This document shows, in pieces, positions 15,646 to 21,782 of a DNA stretch of 64,000 bases. The notes below the pieces were generated by a model that worked only from the letters and a program-made list of their open reading frames with translations, did no database searches and had not been told where the DNA came from. Positions within the stretch are counted from its first letter, which is position 1. The number at the start of each line of letters is the position of its first letter. The DNA is taken from the UHGV virus genome UHGV-0293664, one strand, 5' to 3'. The position numbers and the translations under genes are program-made. This DNA is from a virus.

Positions 15646-17022
15646 ATGCCATATTTAGATAAAGTGGTAGATGTTACAGTTAACCTCGGAACCCAGCCTA
15701 TTGACACTGTAGGTTTCGAAACCCCGCTGTTCATCGCTATCCACAACAACTTTACTGAGCGAGCTCGCGTGTATGCTGAGCTGGACCAGATGGTGGAAGA
15801 CGGTTTCGCACAAGGCTCTGCAGCGTATGAGTTTGCAGCAAAAGCTTTCGGCGGTGTATTCCCTCCACAATACGTTATAATCGGCAGACAGGCTAAAGAA
15901 AAAACCACTGTAGATTTTAAAGGTATTGCTGCCGCAGCCGATACCGATGTCGTAATGACCATTGCAAAAGGCAGCTACAATACTTCTTTGATAGTGCCTA
16001 TCTCTGGTGGAACAGCTGCAACTCAGATTGCAGAATCAATGAAGACTAAAATCGAAGCAGATGATAACTTGGACGATATCACTGTAGCGGCTGAAGACGG
16101 TGTTATCACCATCACTGGTGACTGTACTGTAGGTTATCATACTGGTAACTATACAATCAAAAATATCGCCAATGCTGAAAAACCTTCTACAGTAGTTGAT
16201 AAGATCAATGCTGAGCGTGACAATTGGTACTTCCTGTGCCATGAAGACCACACCGACATTGAAGCATGTGCTAAGTGGGCTCAGGCCAACTACAAGCTGC
16301 ATGTTTACTCTACTGCAGAAGATGTGACTGGTAAAGATAATAACATCGCCACCAAACTGATGGCTGCACAATATGACAGTGTTGGCATGTACGATCCTCG
16401 TGCTGATAAAGATTTTCCAGAGGGTGGTATCGTAGGCGCTATGGCATCCAACGATCCGTCTTACGGTGACAGCTTGCACTTAAAACAGATGCCGGGTGTG
16501 ATTGCACCATCTCTGACTTTAACTCAGCGTATGGCGATTTGGGAAAACCACGTTAACTTCTACAGAATGATTAACGGTGTTGGCGCTTTCTGGGAAGGTA
16601 AGTGTGCTTCAGGTCAGTATGCAGACGCTATTCGTTTTGCACACTGGATCAAGTTCAGATCTGAAGAATCCATGTTTGGGTACATGCATCGTCGCTCTAA
16701 TATGGGTTTAAGCATGAAGATGTCCGATGATGATCTCCCGGTTATCAAGTCTGTCCTGATGAACAACCCAATCAACACTGGCATTAAGAATGGTGCGATC
16801 CTGACAGGTTTCGACGAAGACAATAATGTATTCTACGACCCGATCATTACAGTTCCTAAACGTGCAGAAATCCCAACCAATCAGTTGGCTGCTCGTGTTC
16901 TGGAAGGTGTGAAAGTAGAGCTGGTGTATAACAACGCCCTGCACTTCGTTCGTATCCGGATCAACGTCCTTCTGGACAAAGTTGGTTCTAAATCCACCAA
17001 TGCTGTTGCAATGACTGAATAA
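15646..17022 (+). CDS. tail sheath-like protein (candidate)
   Basis: 458-aa ORF with high-expression codon bias, immediately upstream of a 157-aa tube-like gene, the chaperone pair and tape measure; order sheath-tube-chaperone-TMP is typical of contractile tails; not motif-verified. Confidence 0.4.
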   Translation: MPYLDKVVDVTVNLGTQPIDTVGFETPLFIAIHNNFTERARVYAELDQMVEDGFAQGSAAYEFAAKAFGGVFPPQYVIIGRQAKEKTTVDFKGIAAAADTDVVMTIAKGSYNTSLIVPISGGTAATQIAESMKTKIEADDNLDDITVAAEDGVITITGDCTVGYHTGNYTIKNIANAEKPSTVVDKINAERDNWYFLCHEDHTDIEACAKWAQANYKLHVYSTAEDVTGKDNNIATKLMAAQYDSVGMYDPRADKDFPEGGIVGAMASNDPSYGDSLHLKQMPGVIAPSLTLTQRMAIWENHVNFYRMINGVGAFWEGKCASGQYADAIRFAHWIKFRSEESMFGYMHRRSNMGLSMKMSDDDLPVIKSVLMNNPINTGIKNGAILTGFDEDNNVFYDPIITVPKRAEIPTNQLAARVLEGVKVELVYNNALHFVRIRINVLLDKVGSKSTNAVAMTE

Positions 17023-17032
17023 GGAAGCCTAG

Positions 17033-17506
17033 ATGGAAACTCAAATTTTAACTCCTTATGCGTATGACCCTAAAAAGGTCAAACTGTATCTGATGCAGCA
17101 GCGTGTCACTGGCTTCGCTGCTGACACCAAGATTGTTGTTTCAAGAAACGAAGACAACATTTATCCCCACGTCGGTGTGGATGGCGAAATGTCTGCAGCT
17201 CTGTCCCGTAACCAATCTGGTGTTATGACTGTATCTTTGCAGAACACTTCTGTATGGAACGCTTACCTTTCTGACTGGCAGAAACAGGCATCGATTACTG
17301 GCCTGGTATTCTTCCCGGTTCTGCTGGAAGGTAGCCAGGGCCCTGGTATTTCCACAATCGGTTGGATCCAGAAACAGCCTGACCTGACTTACGGAACCGA
17401 AGTAGGTCAACTGGACTGGGATATCGGTATTCTGGATGCATGGCTCAACCGTGATAACATCACTGGTGCTCTTACTGGCCTCGCAGGTCTTGCAGGTATT
17501 ATCTAA
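17033..17506 (+). CDS. tail tube / major tail protein (candidate)
   Basis: 157-aa ORF directly before the chaperone genes, followed by a terminator. Confidence 0.4.
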   Translation: METQILTPYAYDPKKVKLYLMQQRVTGFAADTKIVVSRNEDNIYPHVGVDGEMSAALSRNQSGVMTVSLQNTSVWNAYLSDWQKQASITGLVFFPVLLEGSQGPGISTIGWIQKQPDLTYGTEVGQLDWDIGILDAWLNRDNITGALTGLAGLAGII

Positions 17507-17523
17507 GGGCACACTTTAGCATA

Positions 17524-17555
17524 AGCCTCACCTTCGGGTGGGGCTTTTTGCTTTT
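17524..17555 (+). terminator. intrinsic terminator
   Basis: gcctcacc-ttcg-ggtggggc followed by tttttgctttt. Confidence 0.65.
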
Positions 17556-17596
17556 ATGGTTTTGACACACGTTCTTGAATTGCTTGAAAGGTTAAA

Positions 17597-17625
17597 TTGA
17601 CAATGCACAATAATCATGGTAAAAT
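17597..17625 (+). promoter_or_regulatory. sigma70-type promoter with extended -10 (TTGACA-N17-TGgTAAAAT)
   Basis: TTGACA 17597-17602; TG 17617-17618; TAAAAT 17620-17625. Confidence 0.6.
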
Positions 17626-17668
17626 ACACAAATATGGTGCACAACATGACTAATAAGGATGCTATAAA

Positions 17669-18142
17669 ATGGCTATAAACTTTAGACCTACAACAGAGAT
17701 TGATTTAGCAGGGCACAACTTTGTGATCACCCACTGGGGACCGATGAAAGCAATGAAAAACATGCCTAAAATCGGTAAGATTGTGGCTGTCCCGCTAGGT
17801 GCTATCGGCGGATCTATTATCTCAGGCGGTCAGAACATGGCAGAAGTCCTTCCTACTGCTCTGGCTTACCTGTTCCAAGAACTTGATGATAACTCTATTG
17901 AAGAGTTATTTAAAATTTTGTTCGAAGATATTACCGTAGATGGTGTGGATAAGCTTAACCCGGATGTTGTGTTTGCAGGGCATCTGCTGGAGATGATTAA
18001 GCTGGCAGGTAAGGTTCTGGAGGTTAACTACGGCTGTTTTTTCACACAAGACGGTTTAGGAAGCCTTCTGGAGATGTTACAGCAGATGGGTATGATTCAG
18101 CAGGTGAACAACCTGGATCAGACTCCGGAAGAGCAGGAATAA
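17669..18142 (+). CDS. tail assembly chaperone (gpG-like, zero-frame product)
   Basis: 157-aa ORF directly upstream of the tape measure gene; contains slippery heptamer T_TTT_TTC. Confidence 0.6.
   Translation: MAINFRPTTEIDLAGHNFVITHWGPMKAMKNMPKIGKIVAVPLGAIGGSIISGGQNMAEVLPTALAYLFQELDDNSIEELFKILFEDITVDGVDKLNPDVVFAGHLLEMIKLAGKVLEVNYGCFFTQDGLGSLLEMLQQMGMIQQVNNLDQTPEEQE
18037..18043 (+). other. -1 programmed ribosomal frameshift slippery site T_TTT_TTC
   Basis: Heptamer is in X_XXY_YYZ register with the chaperone frame (codons tgT TTT TTC = C F F); the -1 frame is open from here to 18402. Confidence 0.55.
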
Positions 18143-18402
18143 GCAAGGTTGTTGTGAGGGCCAGTGAGTGGGCAGCCAAGAACAGTTCACTCAACTGGTT
18201 CGACTTTCTTTGGTGCAGGGTGCTCAAGAATTTCAAAGGGGAAAATTTTGAATCGCTAAATCTTGCAGATATGGCGTATTTCCTGAAGCTCTGTGAGTAT
18301 CTTGATATCGAAGAATTCCTAGATACCGTCCAAAACAGGGAAATGGAGCGGGAGCAGAAGGCTGCCGCAGCTGCTGCGAAAGCTAAGCGCAGGAGAGGAT
18401 AA
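18043..18402 (+). CDS. tail assembly chaperone frameshift extension (gpGT-like; fusion product about 244 aa)
   Basis: The -1 frame has no stop between 18043 and 18400; the track ORF 18154..18402 is its tail; position matches the conserved G/GT arrangement before the tape measure. Confidence 0.5.
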   Translation, partial: HTRRFRKPSGDVTADGYDSAGEQPGSDSGRAGISKVVVRASEWAAKNSSLNWFDFLWCRVLKNFKGENFESLNLADMAYFLKLCEYLDIEEFLDTVQNREMEREQKAAAAAAKAKRRRG

Positions 18403-18456
18403 TCTAAGGGCCGGATTCCTTTTCTGGGATCTGGCCCTTTTTATTATGAGGAAACC

Positions 18457-20793
18457 ATGGCTACAAACAAAATAGTTGCCACAACAGTCAACAAGATTGG
18501 CTTTGAGATAGAGAACTCCTCCTACAAAAAAGCTGTAGAGAAAATTCGCAGTATTGGGAGGGAGTTCAGGAAACTGGGCGAAGATTTTAACTCAGCCAAC
18601 CCCATGAGCAGATGGCAGGCGGTAGCTGTTAAAACCCAGCAGACAATGCAGCGGGTTGCCAGACAGCAATCTCAGGCAAATGCTAAACTGCACAGAGAGA
18701 GCGTAGCACAGGCCAAGAAAGAGGCTGCAGTAAGGGCTGCAATAGAACGTAGGGAGAATGCGAGACGTAAACAAGCTGTAGGTAATCTTACCGCTAAAAA
18801 TCCAGAAATGGCTAGGATGCGTAAGTTCTACCAGCAGCAAGCTAAAGAGGCCAAAAAGGCTGCCAAATCTGCACCAGTGTCTTACGGTGGTTATAAGGCA
18901 CCTAAGGCAAGAGTTTTGGCTAATGCCAAATCTTTCAAATATATCCCCGGTAACCCTAATATGGGTGGTGTGGCTTCCGACCCTAACCTTGTGAAAGCTC
19001 AGACAGCCGCTATGAATCGTTATCATAGACAGCTAAGAAGAGACAGTAAAGCTGGTATGGATAATAAGCTTATGTCGGATCGTGAGGCAAGGAGAACCCA
19101 CCTCTACAACTCCGCGATAAGACTTTCTGCCAAGTATGGGGCCGGATTCCGTGGAAGCTTGCCAGGATACTCAGAGTTAGAGTCCAGGTTTGCTCGCGGG
19201 GAGATGAAGAAGTCAACCTTTAACGCCCACCTGTCAGCGCTGCAGTCTGGGTTTAAAAGCGCCACCAGCCAAACGCTTACACTAGGTGATGCCATGAGAG
19301 ACCTACGTAGATCTGTTATTAATGCAACAGCTGCGTATACGGCTTTTTCTGGATTTGCTGCGGTTAACAGATCCGGTCACATGATGGAGGGGGCAAGTGC
19401 TGCTCTTACTGCTGTTACTGGAGATCCAAACAAAGCCAACAGTGAGGTTGCGTTTGTCCAGCAAGAGGCTATGCGTCTTGGTTTTGATCTCAAATCTGGT
19501 CTTCAAGGTTACGCCCAGATGTCGGTAAACGCCAAAAACCAGATGACAAATCAGGAAGTGCATGAGCTGTTTTCTGCATACTCACAGTATGCTGCTGCTT
19601 ATGGTGCCGATGAGGTAAAATACCAGCGCGGTATTATGGCTATCCAACAGATGCTAGGCAAGGGACAAGTAATGTCCGAAGAACTGAAGCAACAACTTGC
19701 TGAAGCATTGCCCGGTGCATACGAACCTTTTATCAAGGCCACCAAAGAGGCTTTTGGTCTTTCTGAACTCTCCATGGATCAGTTCATGGACATGATGAAG
19801 AAAGGTGAGGTTAAAACAGCCAAGATCATGAAGTATGTGGCTAAGTACATGAACGAGGCATCTGCAGCTGGTTATGAAAGAATGCAGAAGTCTAACGTGC
19901 TGGCAGAAAACAGACTGAAAACCTTCATCGAACTGACTCGTCAGAAACTGTTCACCCGTTGGTCCGACGAACTAACAGAGTTCTATTATACACTAATCCG
20001 CACTGGTGAGACTCTGCAATTTGTGTGGGATGCCTCTGGTGATTTTGTTAGCGGGTTTGTGAGAGGCCTTAACTGGGTAGTTGGTGAACTAAACAACACC
20101 ATAGTCAAGATCCGCATGTTTTTCCTTGAATGGGGGATTAAATGGGGATTCATAACAGCTAAGACGAAGGAATATTCTGAAGAGCTTCATGACACCTTTA
20201 GTTATGCTAAATGGGCAGGGTTTGCTGCTGCCATTATGCTGGTAGTGAACGCCCTAACAAAAGGTTTTGTCATGGCATCCATGCTTGTAAAAACCTTTAA
20301 ATTCCTTAACTCTCTAAGGGGTGCAGCCGGAGCAGCGGGTGCCGCTACTACAGAAGGATCTGGTGGTGGTGCTCCGGCAGGAAAAGGGGGAGGTGGCCTC
20401 AAGACACCTGGTGGCAAAGTTGGTCTGCTCGGTAAGTTGGGCATTATCGGTACAATACTAAGCGCCGGGGAATTGTTTAATGACCGTTACAACCCACTAA
20501 GTGAAAGAAATCAGCAGCTGGATACCATCAGTGATATGATTCGTAAAGATATCATATCTGGAGGTAACGGGTTTGTTAATCCTTTGGACACCTTACCGGG
20601 AGGGACTCTTCCGTTACCAGGTGGTCCTGGTTTTGCTTCTCAATTAAGAACTATGGAAATGCTGCCTTTAGAGATCAGTGATGGGAAAATCACGATTTCA
20701 ATAGATGAGGGTGAGTTTAACAAAATATTTGATGCAAAACTGGAGTGGGAGAACAATAAAGATATCAACTTCATGTCTACCGACCTTTGGTAA
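18457..20793 (+). CDS. tail tape measure protein
   Basis: 778 aa; follows the chaperone pair; long helical Ala/Lys/Gln-rich stretches and Gly-rich hydrophobic segment GAAGAAGAATTEGSGGGAPAGKGGGG. Confidence 0.65.
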   Translation: MATNKIVATTVNKIGFEIENSSYKKAVEKIRSIGREFRKLGEDFNSANPMSRWQAVAVKTQQTMQRVARQQSQANAKLHRESVAQAKKEAAVRAAIERRENARRKQAVGNLTAKNPEMARMRKFYQQQAKEAKKAAKSAPVSYGGYKAPKARVLANAKSFKYIPGNPNMGGVASDPNLVKAQTAAMNRYHRQLRRDSKAGMDNKLMSDREARRTHLYNSAIRLSAKYGAGFRGSLPGYSELESRFARGEMKKSTFNAHLSALQSGFKSATSQTLTLGDAMRDLRRSVINATAAYTAFSGFAAVNRSGHMMEGASAALTAVTGDPNKANSEVAFVQQEAMRLGFDLKSGLQGYAQMSVNAKNQMTNQEVHELFSAYSQYAAAYGADEVKYQRGIMAIQQMLGKGQVMSEELKQQLAEALPGAYEPFIKATKEAFGLSELSMDQFMDMMKKGEVKTAKIMKYVAKYMNEASAAGYERMQKSNVLAENRLKTFIELTRQKLFTRWSDELTEFYYTLIRTGETLQFVWDASGDFVSGFVRGLNWVVGELNNTIVKIRMFFLEWGIKWGFITAKTKEYSEELHDTFSYAKWAGFAAAIMLVVNALTKGFVMASMLVKTFKFLNSLRGAAGAAGAATTEGSGGGAPAGKGGGGLKTPGGKVGLLGKLGIIGTILSAGELFNDRYNPLSERNQQLDTISDMIRKDIISGGNGFVNPLDTLPGGTLPLPGGPGFASQLRTMEMLPLEISDGKITISIDEGEFNKIFDAKLEWENNKDINFMSTDLW

Positions 20794-20802
20794 TAAACTG
20801 TG

Positions 20803-20864: not shown

Positions 20865-20897
20865 ATTTAGATGGTATCGGAGTGTCCTGGAGAGGTT

Positions 20898-21782
20898 ATG
20901 CAAAGTAATATAGTTGATGAAAAAGACCTGTACAAGCCTCGAGAGGTTAAATCTCCAAAGGCTGAAAAGGCAGAGCAGCAAACCGAAAGCGATGTAAAGT
21001 ACACTATGTTTGTCAGCGGTCTTAACTATGGCGGTCGCAACATAGAGATGAAGGGTAAAAACTTTACTAACGATCTTGCCATTATCTTCGATCAGGTTGA
21101 GAACTACTCTTTCAAACATTCTGTTGATAAGACGGGGTTTGCGGTGGAAGATAAATCTACCCTGTCAGACCACGCTGTAATTAAAGATGGTGTATTTTCT
21201 TTTACTGGTAGGGTAAATACATCTCCACATATAATCTATGAGCAAAACTACATCGATAGGAATACTGACTCTAAAAACCCTGCAGCATCTATGCGACCAA
21301 GTGCTGCACTGGAGGCTTTGACTGAGATCATTAATAAGCGACAGTTGGTTTCTTTGGTTACCGAGGAGAGACTTCTTGAGAACTACATCATAACCAGTCT
21401 TTCTGCCAGCAAGTCTGTTGGTGAAGGTGCTGCAATGGTTTTTGATGTAGAACTTACGGAGTTCCGCACATTCTACTTGAACAAGGTTGTTAATGCAACT
21501 GTATACAGCAATCCCAAGAAAGTAGGCAAGACTCAACAAAAAGGTGCTGTCAACGATTGTAAGAATGGCAGTAACGTAGGTAACAAGAGAGACACAGGGG
21601 CATTTGCAGACACTGCATCCACAAATGCTGCAGAGGAGTGGCAGCCATATAAATCTATGATGTGGACAGATGAAAACGGTGTTACCCAATCGGCTGCGGA
21701 TTGGTATTATCAGGAATATGGAAGACCTTCTACCATAGTCCCATCTGAGCAGGGAAACTACGACAAAGTTAACGGGAAATAA
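20898..21782 (+). CDS. hypothetical tail/baseplate protein
   Basis: ATG at 20898 after RBS GGAGAGG; first gene after the tape measure. Confidence 0.35.
   Translation: MQSNIVDEKDLYKPREVKSPKAEKAEQQTESDVKYTMFVSGLNYGGRNIEMKGKNFTNDLAIIFDQVENYSFKHSVDKTGFAVEDKSTLSDHAVIKDGVFSFTGRVNTSPHIIYEQNYIDRNTDSKNPAASMRPSAALEALTEIINKRQLVSLVTEERLLENYIITSLSASKSVGEGAAMVFDVELTEFRTFYLNKVVNATVYSNPKKVGKTQQKGAVNDCKNGSNVGNKRDTGAFADTASTNAAEEWQPYKSMMWTDENGVTQSAADWYYQEYGRPSTIVPSEQGNYDKVNGK

What the first reader, a model, noticed from the sequence alone, without database searches (positions are those of the whole stretch)
18037..18402. Programmed -1 frameshift site T_TTT_TTC in the tail assembly chaperone
The heptamer is in exact X_XXY_YYZ register with the chaperone frame, and the -1 frame is open from 18043 to 18400. 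This predicts a gpG/gpGT-like pair (157 aa and a fusion of about 244 aa) just before the tape measure gene. The site lies about 100 nt before the zero-frame stop, so the two products differ by a long C-terminal swap.
Basis: partly seen in the sequence, partly recalled or inferred. Interest (0 to 1): 0.4.

Follow-up and report, generated by a model that had tools for sequence, protein, structure and literature searches.

The report
Frameshifted tail chaperone, rV5-like phage
The window comes from an rV5-like E. coli phage, and its tail assembly chaperone gene almost certainly uses the classic lambda G/GT-style -1 ribosomal slip (T_TTT_TTC) to make a short and a long chaperone just before the tape measure gene; this is an ordinary, well-known phage device that public records of this phage group leave unannotated.

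Summary
T_TTT_TTC (18037-18043) is in X_XXY_YYZ register with the 157-aa chaperone ORF 17669..18142. The -1 frame is open from 18028 to 18399 (stop 18400-18402). A slip would give a 244-aa fusion, join(17669..18043,18043..18402).

The window is about 99% identical to rV5-like Vequintavirus phages. The ORF is a Pfam Phage_TAC_15 chaperone and lies between the sheath/tube genes and the tape measure gene.

The strongest evidence is comparative. All 56 related loci examined (50 unique sequences, down to about 28% protein identity) keep an in-register slippery heptamer at this position and a -1 ORF running 73-97 codons past the stop. In 48 sequences the site is NNT_TTT_TTC, even though the preceding residue varies (Cys, Pro, Ser) and flanking synonymous sites vary. 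Two lineages use other heptamers instead: C_CCT_TTT and G_GGA_AAG. The -1 ORF has no conserved start codon.

I found no downstream stimulatory RNA structure. An upstream GGAGG (18019-18023) is a possible stimulator but is not universally conserved. None of about 20 GenBank records inspected annotates the fusion. A 2025 paper describes the same device in sister phage families.

Verdict: a real, ordinary -1 programmed frameshift; a new member of a known kind; no experimental proof here.

The parts
17033..17506 (+). Tail tube gene (157 aa), directly upstream. It is the presumed client of the long chaperone's C-terminal domain; that role is inferred by analogy with lambda gpV.
   Evidence: Pfam PF11681 and phrog_280; annotated as tail tube in relatives.
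17523..17546 (+). Terminator-like hairpin plus T-run after the tube gene.
17597..17625 (+). Sigma-70-like promoter (TTGACA, 17 nt, TAAAAT, with TG before the -10) in front of the chaperone gene.
   Evidence: 11 of 12 matches. rV5 RefSeq annotates promoter P51 at the equivalent place.
17669..18142 (+). Short tail assembly chaperone (gpG-like / TAC-N), 157 aa, made by standard 0-frame translation.
   Evidence: Pfam Phage_TAC_15 2.3e-23 and phrog_3840 5e-69. In the AF2 model residues 1-124 are folded and 125-157 have pLDDT below 50.
18019..18023 (+). Shine-Dalgarno-like GGAGG, 13 nt upstream of the heptamer. It is a candidate 5' stimulator and is unproven.
   Evidence: anti-SD duplex energy is -10.5 kcal/mol, and only 1.9% of background coding segments reach -9.5 or lower. 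A comparably strong element is present in 8 of 19 lineages and absent in 7.
18037..18043 (+). Slippery heptamer T_TTT_TTC in register (codons 124-125, Phe-Phe). This is the proposed site of tandem -1 slippage of tRNA-Phe.
   Evidence: Invariant in 48 of 50 unique homologous sequences; replaced by C_CCT_TTT or G_GGA_AAG in the other two.
18043..18402 (+). The -1 frame extension (119 codons plus stop). It comprises a Gly/Ser/Pro-rich linker that overlaps the 0-frame tail (18043-18139) and a conserved gpT-like C-terminal domain. The full long product is join(17669..18043,18043..18402), 244 aa.
   Evidence: phrog_10409 8.5e-51 on the last 82 residues. No conserved start codon.
18406..18439 (+). 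Strong terminator-like hairpin (14 pairs) plus T-run. It lies immediately after the -1 frame stop and 18 nt before the tape measure ATG.
   Evidence: Also annotated in rV5. Found at the same position in PVP-SE1.
18457..20793 (+). Tape measure protein gene (778 aa), the client of the chaperone.
   Evidence: Pfam TMP_3 and phrog_5255.

Best explanation
This is a lambda G/GT-type programmed -1 ribosomal frameshift in the tail assembly chaperone gene of an rV5-like (Vequintavirus) myovirus.

Most ribosomes read 17669..18142 in frame and make a 157-aa chaperone. A minority do something different when codons UUU-UUC (18038-18043) occupy the P and A sites. Both tRNA-Phe slip back one base onto UUU-UUU (18037-18042), and translation continues in the -1 frame from 18043 to the stop at 18400-18402. 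The result is a 244-aa protein. It shares the folded N-terminal chaperone domain (residues 1-125), then carries a flexible Gly/Ser/Pro-rich linker and a conserved C-terminal domain of about 85 residues in place of the short form's 32-residue tail.

By analogy with lambda gpG/gpGT and P2 gpE/E+E', both forms would coat the tape measure protein (18457..20793). The extra domain of the long form would recruit the tube protein (17033..17506). The slip efficiency would fix the ratio of the two forms.

Shown here: the sequence anatomy, membership of the chaperone family, the gene order, and deep conservation of the site and of the -1 ORF. Inferred: that the slip occurs, its efficiency, and the roles of the two products.
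For: - **Register and open -1 frame.**
- **Gene identity and context.** Pfam Phage_TAC_15 at 83.6 bits, phrog_3840 'tail assembly chaperone', and the gene order sheath, tube, chaperone, tape measure, Dit-like.
- **Uniqueness in the window.** This is the only one of 44 in-register heptamers whose -1 frame passes the stop: 119 codons against at most 29 for the others.
- **Conservation.** All 56 loci (50 unique sequences) keep an in-register heptamer at the aligned N-Y-G-x-F-F position and a -1 ORF extending 73-97 codons (67 in one locus cut off by its contig end). They come from Vequintavirus, Seunavirus, Avunavirus, Mydovirus, Certrevirus, Plateaulakevirus, Stephanstirmvirinae, Barbavirus and metagenomes, at 28-100% chaperone identity.
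- **Selection on the nucleotides.** The codon before Phe-Phe encodes Cys, Pro or Ser but always ends in T (TGT, CCT, AGT, TCT). Phe-1 is always TTT and Phe-2 always TTC, while neighbouring synonymous sites vary (TAC/TAT, GGC/GGA/GGT).
- **Alternative heptamers.** The two lineages without Phe-Phe carry other canonical heptamers: C_CCT_TTT in KLEP7 and the lambda-type G_GGA_AAG in Barbavirus.
- **No conserved start.** The -1 ORF lacks a conserved start codon. In the Klebsiella phage K54_rec2 and Proteus phage Mydo the first ATG/GTG/TTG is codon 84 of the extension, 45 residues into the conserved domain. It is codon 61-64 in Certrevirus and KLEP7.
- **Same site in a sister subfamily.** An Ounavirinae phage (Zyzzx) has T_TTT_TTC in an N-F-S-S-F-F context with a 77-aa extension.
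- **Domain boundary.** The site lies at the end of the folded domain in the AF2 model of the short form; residues 125-157 have pLDDT below 50.
- **Literature.**
  - UUY A-site codons and all-pyrimidine heptamers are among the shift-prone classes in E. coli (PMC4066793).
  - G/GT frameshifting is widely conserved in long-tailed phages (PMC5009743).
  - A conserved -1 frameshift at a GTTTTT motif was proposed for the chaperone locus of the related Vandenendeviridae and Andersonviridae (PMC12846349).
Against: - There is no experimental detection of the fusion for this phage group. The rV5 genome/proteome paper does not mention it.
- None of about 20 GenBank records inspected annotates a join.
- No downstream stimulatory structure was found and there is no Rfam match. 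Heptamers without stimulators gave at most about 10 times a 0.055% background in E. coli reporters, so reaching a few percent would probably need a stimulator that I could not establish.
- The upstream GGAGG is absent from 7 of 19 lineages, and it is partly explained by the conserved Leu-Glu-Val codons.
- In this particular phage a GTG at 18154, preceded by AAGG, could support some independent initiation.
- No natural in-frame fusion of the two halves was found among database homologues.
Confidence: 0.88

Rival explanations
1. The downstream ORF is an independent small gene (82 aa, GTG 18154..18402) translated from its own start, as most GenBank records annotate it. On this view the heptamer is incidental.
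For: GTG at 18154 is preceded by AAGG at 18145-18148, with 5-nt spacing. Many records call it a separate CDS, some with an annotated ribosome binding site. Gene callers produce 80-82 aa proteins for it.
Against: - Annotated starts differ between relatives, giving CDS lengths from 132 to 369 nt.
- No start codon is conserved. In K54_rec2 and Mydo the first start is codon 84, and in several other lineages codon 50-64, which is inside or after the beginning of the conserved domain.
- The -1 frame is stop-free from the heptamer onward in all 50 unique sequences, including through the 0-frame overlap, where an independent gene would not need it to be.
- The heptamer is preserved at synonymous positions.
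Confidence: 0.05
2. The fusion is made by transcriptional slippage. RNA polymerase adds one U at the T6 run, giving U7 mRNAs that encode exactly the same 244-aa protein. The ribosome does not slip.
For: The site is a homopolymer (T6, 18037-18042). The protein product would be identical, so sequence analysis alone cannot separate the two mechanisms in this phage. A paper cited in PMC12846349 (Vladimirov et al. [quoted passage not shown]
Against: - Homologues replace the T-run with G_GGA_AAG (Barbavirus) or C_CCT_TTT (KLEP7). Both are ribosomal tandem-slippage motifs without a long homopolymer.
- What is conserved is the codon register (X_XXY_YYZ), which matters to ribosomes and not to RNA polymerase.
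- From general knowledge, E. coli RNA polymerase slips appreciably only on runs of about 8-9 or more A or T.
Confidence: 0.05
3. Coincidence: a Phe-Phe dipeptide happens to be encoded TTT-TTC after a T, next to an open -1 frame, and no fusion is made.
For: About 0.1 in-register heptamers are expected by chance in the 38-codon permissive window.
Against: The heptamer, its register and the long -1 ORF are conserved across all 56 loci down to 28% protein identity, with substitute heptamers in the two lineages that lack Phe-Phe.
Confidence: 0.02

Closest known systems
Phage lambda gpG/gpGT tail assembly chaperones (-1 frameshift at G_GGA_AAG; Levin, Hendrix & Casjens 1993; Xu, Hendrix & Duda 2004, 2013, 2014, as summarised in PMC5009743)
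   Same: Two overlapping ORFs lie between the tail tube gene and the tape measure gene. The first is a tail assembly chaperone. A -1 slip on an in-register heptamer gives a minor long form that carries an extra C-terminal domain. The second ORF has no dependable start of its own. The Barbavirus homologues even use the lambda heptamer G_GGA_AAG.
   Different: - The heptamer here is T_TTT_TTC.
- The host virus is a contractile-tailed myovirus of about 137 kb.
- The slip is 96 nt (32 codons) before the 0-frame stop, so the short form has a sizeable tail of its own.
- The chaperone belongs to a different Pfam family (PF21822), and the C-terminal domain matches no named family.
- The ratio of the two forms is unknown here (30:1 in lambda).
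Phage P2 gpE / gpE+E' (-1 frameshift at T_TTT_TTG in the FETUD tail operon; Christie et al. 2002, recalled from memory; cited as B141 in PMC5009743)
   Same: A contractile-tailed phage with a T-run heptamer (six T's followed by one other base). The chaperone pair lies immediately upstream of the tape measure gene.
   Different: The last base is C rather than G. There is no detectable sequence relationship. P2's efficiency is reported as 2-3 times that of lambda; it is unknown here.
TAC-N / TAC-NC locus of Vandenendeviridae (Pakpunavirus Adele) and Andersonviridae (Felix O1-like and Mooglevirus), proposed -1 frameshift at an invariant GTTTTT motif (PMC12846349, Dec 2025)
   Same: - These are evolutionarily related virion modules. 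The paper links these families to Vequintavirinae and Stephanstirmvirinae.
- The gene order is the same.
[quoted passage not shown]
- The downstream region is routinely mis-annotated as a hypothetical protein.
- The argument rests on the same evidence, an uninterrupted -1 frame across divergent genomes.
- I confirmed T_TTT_TTC with a 77-aa extension in an Ounavirinae phage.
- The window's TGTTTTTTC contains that GTTTTT motif.
   Different: In the passages I read, the paper does not analyse Vequintavirinae or Stephanstirmvirinae for this feature. A Flaumdravirus locus I checked has the -1 ORF but no strict X_XXY_YYZ heptamer, whereas the window's clade has a canonical one.
E. coli dnaX tau/gamma frameshift (A_AAA_AAG with an upstream Shine-Dalgarno-like element and a downstream hairpin; from general knowledge)
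   Same: A -1 tandem slip in E. coli. A Shine-Dalgarno-like GGAGG lies 13 nt upstream of the site in the window, within the range I recall as stimulatory for -1 shifts (about 10-14 nt).
   Different: There is no downstream hairpin here. The upstream element is not conserved in all relatives. In dnaX the shifted frame terminates almost at once, whereas here it adds 119 residues.

Membership tests
G/GT-type tail assembly chaperone frameshift (Xu, Hendrix & Duda 2004) | A pair of overlapping ORFs located between the major tail/tube gene and the tape measure gene | tested here: met
   Tube 17033..17506, chaperone 17669..18142, -1 ORF ending at 18402, tape measure 18457..20793.
G/GT-type tail assembly chaperone frameshift (Xu, Hendrix & Duda 2004) | The upstream ORF is a tail assembly chaperone | tested here: met
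   Pfam PF21822 Phage_TAC_15, 83.6 bits against a cut-off of 22; phrog_3840 5.4e-69.
G/GT-type tail assembly chaperone frameshift (Xu, Hendrix & Duda 2004) | A canonical slippery sequence, in register, inside the stretch where both frames are open | tested here: met
   T_TTT_TTC at 18037-18043. The -1 frame is open from 18028 and the 0-frame stop is at 18140.
G/GT-type tail assembly chaperone frameshift (Xu, Hendrix & Duda 2004) | The site and the two-frame arrangement are conserved among diverged relatives despite low sequence similarity | tested here: met
   56 of 56 loci (50 unique sequences, 28-100% identity) keep it. Heptamer substitutions are C_CCT_TTT and G_GGA_AAG.
G/GT-type tail assembly chaperone frameshift (Xu, Hendrix & Duda 2004) | The downstream ORF lacks its own conserved translation start | tested here: met
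   The first possible start varies from codon 36 to codon 84 of the extension and often lies inside the conserved domain.
G/GT-type tail assembly chaperone frameshift (Xu, Hendrix & Duda 2004) | The fusion protein is actually made, at a low fixed ratio to the short form | not testable with these tools
   Needs mass spectrometry, a western blot or a reporter assay. No report was found.
G/GT-type tail assembly chaperone frameshift (Xu, Hendrix & Duda 2004) | Both products are required for tail assembly, bind the tape measure protein, and are absent from virions | not testable with these tools
   Genetic and biochemical property; inferred by analogy only (PMC5009743).
Tail assembly chaperone fold (HK97 gp10-like helical 'spiral' structure) | Structural similarity of the N-terminal domain to solved chaperone structures | tested here: inconclusive
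   - The AF2 model has mean pLDDT 67.3 and pTM 0.62.
- These scores are weak.
- A sequence search of the PDB found nothing.
-1 frameshift signals with RNA stimulators (dnaX / IS911 / IS3 type) | A stable downstream hairpin or pseudoknot a few nt after the heptamer | tested here: not met
   Fold z-scores are 0.72, -0.27 and -1.67 against shuffles. The consensus structure of 8 homologues is -2.8 kcal/mol with no convincing covariation. No Rfam hit.
-1 frameshift signals with RNA stimulators (dnaX / IS911 / IS3 type) | An upstream Shine-Dalgarno-like element at stimulatory spacing | tested here: inconclusive
   GGAGG at 18019-18023 has duplex energy -10.5 kcal/mol, in the top 2% of coding background. 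A comparably strong element occurs in only 8 of 19 lineages, and it is confounded by the conserved Leu-Glu-Val codons.

The most novel reading that the evidence does not exclude
The ratio of the two chaperone forms in this clade might be set not by a 3' RNA structure but by a 5' stimulator lying in the almost invariant L-E-V-N-Y-G-x-F-F stretch. That stimulator could be the GGAGG:anti-SD pairing 13 nt upstream, the nascent peptide itself, or both.

Separately, because the slip lies 32 codons before the stop, the event is a true C-terminal swap. The moderately conserved 32-residue tail found only in the short form (G-F-x-x-L...L-D-Q) would then have a function of its own.

The promoter and terminator that bracket the unit (17597-17625 and 18406-18439) could add a second, transcriptional layer that sets chaperone-to-tape-measure stoichiometry.
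Probability: 0.15. Interest if true: 0.45.

Novelty: new member of a known kind. Interest (0 to 1): 0.22.

Why it matters
The main value is for annotation. More than 100 near-identical Vequintavirus genomes, and about 490 phage records carrying this chaperone family, appear to lack the long chaperone form. They either call an arbitrary 'hypothetical protein' of 43-122 aa or leave a gap of about 300 bp. Annotating join(17669..18043,18043..18402) would correct a systematic error in a phage group that is being developed for therapy and biocontrol.

It also extends the G/GT rule to the rV5-like, phi92-like and phAPEC8-like myoviruses. The data show heptamer turnover at one homologous site (T_TTT_TTC, C_CCT_TTT, G_GGA_AAG), a small natural experiment on which slippery sequences are interchangeable.

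It does not change any concept.

Tried and rejected
- **Downstream stimulatory structure.** I folded 57-, 87- and 117-nt stretches after the heptamer, and one 101-nt stretch around it. None differs from shuffles. The consensus fold of 8 homologues is negligible. Rejected.
- **Rfam.** Scan of 17400-18600 at E up to 1 gave only a sub-threshold chance hit.
- **Structure of the 244-aa fusion.** Predicted from a single sequence; mean pLDDT was 37.7, which is unusable, so no fold search was run on it.
- **PDB sequence search.** A chaperone profile found nothing credible. NCBIfam found nothing for either part.
- **Natural in-frame fusions of the two halves.** Searching 5.8 billion proteins with the fusion gave 73 hits, all 149-159 aa and covering only the N half. 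Searching with the -1 part gave 3 hits of 80-82 aa. This gives no support from a natural fused gene, and it is not evidence against the frameshift.
- **Homology of the C-terminal domains across subfamilies.** Pairwise comparison of the window's domain with that of the Ounavirinae phage gave E = 0.18, which is not significant.
- **Existing join/ribosomal-slippage annotation.** None was found in about 20 records, including RefSeq and Center for Phage Technology annotations.
- **+1 frame.** It is closed (19 codons), so a +1 or -2 event is rejected.
- **Literature.** The rV5, phiTE and phi92 papers say nothing about a frameshift or a chaperone. Vladimirov et al. 2022 is not held in the library.
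Full report
**What the window is.** The 3.8-kb stretch 17000-20800 is 98-99% identical over its full length to 116 Escherichia phages of the genus Vequintavirus (rV5, APECc02, Murica, the BASEL phage RudolfGeigy and others). The local gene order on the + strand is:
- tail sheath 15646..17022 (DUF3383, phrog_205);
- tail tube 17033..17506 (PF11681);
- a 157-aa ORF 17669..18142;
- tape measure protein 18457..20793 (PF20155, phrog_5255);
- a Dit-like protein 20871..21782.

The 157-aa ORF is a tail assembly chaperone by curated criteria: Pfam PF21822 Phage_TAC_15 at 83.6 bits against a cut-off of 22, and phrog_3840 at 5e-69.

**Checking the observation.** The sequence reads ...TAC GGC TGT TTT TTC ACA... 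with TTT at 18038-18040 as codon 124 and TTC at 18041-18043 as codon 125. T_TTT_TTC (18037-18043) is therefore exactly in X_XXY_YYZ register.
- The -1 frame has its last stop at 18025-18027. It is open from 18028 to 18399 and stops at 18400-18402.
- A -1 slip gives join(17669..18043,18043..18402), that is 125 + 119 = 244 aa.
- The +1 frame is closed.
- Across 17,096 codons of the window's long ORFs there are 44 in-register heptamers, so about 0.1 is expected in the 38-codon permissive window.
- Only this one of the 44 leads into a -1 frame that passes the 0-frame stop (119 codons; the next longest is 29).

**Comparative evidence, which is decisive.** I collected homologous loci from four sources:
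- tblastn of the chaperone against 50,697 phage records (491 records hit), from which 14 diverged loci were fetched;
- a scan of IMG/VR, which gave 33 loci;
- four metagenomic contigs found through protein homologues;
- four further GenBank records.

Together with the window these make 56 loci and 50 unique sequences, at 28-100% chaperone identity. They span Vequintavirus, Seunavirus, Avunavirus, Mydovirus, Certrevirus, Plateaulakevirus, Stephanstirmvirinae (Phapecoctavirus and Justusliebigvirus), Barbavirus, the Pseudaeromonas phage KLEP7 and uncultured gut phages.

Every locus has an in-register slippery heptamer at the aligned N-Y-G-x-F-F position. Every locus also has a -1 ORF running 73-97 codons beyond the 0-frame stop, to just before the tape measure gene; one locus is truncated by its contig end.

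In 48 unique sequences the site is NNT_TTT_TTC:
- the residue before Phe-Phe is Cys, Pro or Ser, but its codon always ends in T (TGT, CCT, AGT, TCT);
- Phe-1 is always TTT;
- Phe-2 is always TTC;
- adjacent synonymous positions vary freely (TAC/TAT, GGC/GGA/GGT, and ten different following codons).

The IMG/VR loci were ascertained with a peptide pattern that contains Phe-Phe. That biases the amino acids in the sample but not the codon choice. The two lineages without Phe-Phe carry different canonical heptamers: C_CCT_TTT in KLEP7 and G_GGA_AAG, the lambda heptamer, in Barbavirus. This is selection on slipperiness and register rather than on the protein.

**Against an independent downstream gene.** Public records treat the -1 ORF inconsistently:
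- rV5 RefSeq starts it at a CTG inside the chaperone gene (369 nt);
- other records use the GTG at 18154 (249 nt);
- relatives annotate 132-267 nt;
- some records annotate nothing there.

An alignment of the -1 products shows a variable Gly/Ser/Pro-rich linker followed by a conserved domain (ISKVV.RA..YA.KNSSL.WFD.LW.R.LK.FKGE...L...DM.YLLKL.EYLD.EEF). The first ATG/GTG/TTG after the slip site falls at codon 36-84 depending on the lineage. In K54_rec2 and Mydo it is codon 84, 45 residues into the conserved domain, and in Certrevirus and KLEP7 it is codon 61-64.

So the conserved domain cannot be reached by conventional initiation in those phages. In this window the GTG at 18154 with an AAGG five bases upstream could allow some initiation, but nothing indicates it is the conserved route.

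**Against transcriptional slippage.** Adding one U at the T6 run would produce the identical protein, so sequence analysis cannot exclude it for this phage. Two observations point to the ribosome instead. Barbavirus and KLEP7 replace the T-run with heptamers that have no long homopolymer, and what is conserved is the codon register.

**Stimulators.**
- *Downstream.* RNA folds of 57, 87 and 117 nt after the heptamer give z-scores of 0.72, -0.27 and -1.67 against dinucleotide shuffles. The consensus fold of eight Vequintavirinae sequences is -2.8 kcal/mol with no convincing covariation. Rfam finds nothing.
- *Upstream.* GGAGG at 18019-18023 lies 13 nt before the heptamer. It pairs with the anti-SD at -10.5 kcal/mol, and only 1.9% of coding segments in the window reach -9.5 or lower. 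A comparably strong element is present in 8 of 19 lineages, a weaker one in 4, and none in 7. It also coincides with conserved Leu-Glu-Val codons. It is a candidate and no more.
- *Why a stimulator may be needed.* Sharma et al. 2014 (PMC4066793) report that UUN A-site codons and homogeneous all-pyrimidine motifs are among the more shift-prone in E. coli. They also report that motifs without stimulators reach only 2-10 times a 0.055% background. A ratio like lambda's 30:1 (PMC5009743) would therefore probably need some help.

**Architecture of the two products.**
- An AlphaFold2 model of the short form from a 22-sequence alignment (mean pLDDT 67.3, pTM 0.62) is reasonably confident for residues 1-124 and falls below 50 from residue 125 to the end. 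The slip site thus sits at the boundary of the folded chaperone domain.
- Among ten Vequintavirinae-like sequences, mean pairwise identity is 0.56 for the shared N domain, 0.38 for the short form's own tail, 0.39 for the overlapping -1 linker and 0.53 for the C-terminal domain. This is the pattern expected for two folded domains joined by a dual-coded flexible segment.
- The single-sequence model of the fusion was unusable (pLDDT 37.7).

**Mechanism proposed.** The ribosome carries tRNA-Phe on UUU (P site) and UUC (A site). Both tRNAs re-pair one base back on UUU-UUU, and decoding resumes at CAC (18043). The long form is then ...VNYGCFF-HTRRFRKPSG...KRRRG.

By analogy with lambda and P2 (PMC5009743), both forms would bind the tape measure protein through the shared domain. 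The C-terminal domain of the rare long form would recruit tube subunits. Neither form would stay in the virion. These functional steps are inferred and were not tested.

**Relation to what is known.**
- G/GT-type frameshifting is textbook (Levin 1993; Xu, Hendrix & Duda 2004; reviewed in PMC5009743).
- P2 uses a closely similar T-run heptamer, T_TTT_TTG (recalled from memory).
- A December 2025 paper (PMC12846349) argues, from the same kind of evidence, for a conserved -1 frameshift at an invariant GTTTTT motif in the chaperone locus of Vandenendeviridae and Andersonviridae. It names both as relatives of Vequintavirinae and Stephanstirmvirinae.
- I confirmed the same T_TTT_TTC site with a 77-aa extension in an Ounavirinae phage.
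- I found no paper or GenBank record stating it for rV5-like, phAPEC8-like or phi92-like phages. The searchable library is incomplete.
- The finding is therefore a new, unannotated member of a well-known kind.

**Verdict.**
- Confidence that this is a functional -1 programmed ribosomal frameshift producing a gpGT-like 244-aa protein: about 0.88.
- Residual alternatives: independent initiation (0.05), transcriptional slippage (0.05), coincidence (0.02).
- Interest is low to moderate (0.22). The finding is useful for correcting annotation of a therapeutically relevant phage group and as an example of heptamer turnover, but it would not surprise a specialist.

Noticed in passing
window 17523-17546, 17597-17625, 18406-18439: The chaperone unit is bracketed by transcription signals. 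There is a terminator-like hairpin after the tube gene, then a near-consensus sigma-70 promoter (TTGACA, 17 nt, TAAAAT, with an extended -10 TG). A strong 14-pair terminator follows, placed right after the -1 frame stop and only 18 nt before the tape measure ATG. No promoter-like site lies in between. The tape measure gene would then depend on terminator read-through, which could set chaperone-to-tape-measure stoichiometry. The terminator sits after the -1 ORF stop rather than after the 0-frame stop, which fits the -1 ORF belonging to the chaperone message.
   Followed up: partly
L003 2257-2286 (PVP-SE1); L011 1422-1441 (phAPEC8): The terminator between the -1 ORF and the tape measure gene is also present in Seunavirus PVP-SE1. 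In phAPEC8 the scan found a terminator only after the tube gene and none before the tape measure gene.
   Followed up: partly
GenBank MG0656xx records (for example MG065661.1, MG065646.1, MG065672.1, MG065639.1): About 18-23 records named 'Campylobacter phage', with host C. jejuni, are 98-100% identical in this region to E. coli rV5-like or phAPEC8-like phages. They are probably mislabelled or contaminant genomes.
   Followed up: no
window 18043-18139 (0-frame residues 126-157): The short form's private 32-residue tail (TQDGLGSLLEMLQQMGMIQQVNNLDQTPEEQE) keeps a recognisable pattern across Vequintavirinae (G-F/L-x-x-L...G...V..LDQ). The AF2 model predicts it with low confidence. It is longer than the few residues I recall for lambda gpG, so the two products differ by a real C-terminal swap. 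Whether the tail has a function is unknown.
   Followed up: partly
L059 3892-4496 (Pseudomonas phage KIL3b, Flaumdravirus): The chaperone locus has an 80-codon -1 extension but no strict X_XXY_YYZ heptamer in register. The C-terminal context is N-Y-G-S-V-F. The site may therefore work as a tetramer-type slip or by another route (compare the GTTTTT motif in PMC12846349).
   Followed up: no
L054 1-1097; MG963916.1 (phage PDX) 109731-115406: In a gut-metagenome relative at 74% identity, a 512-aa DUF723 protein gene lies directly upstream of the chaperone, where the tube gene is expected. In phage PDX the 3.8-kb query matches in two pieces spread over 5.7 kb. Both suggest mobile insertions, possibly homing endonuclease-type, in the tail module of some relatives.
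   Followed up: no
L014 2120-2758 (Rheinheimera phage Barba16S): A reverse-strand 'putative DNA binding protein' gene is inserted between the -1 ORF and the tape measure gene, breaking the otherwise tight chaperone-to-tape-measure adjacency.
   Followed up: no
L060 2408-3329 (deep-sea thermophilic phage D6E): A 0.9-kb unannotated gap lies between a tube homologue and the tape measure gene, with open reading frames in two frames. It is probably another unannotated chaperone pair.
   Followed up: no
[not shown]
   Followed up: no
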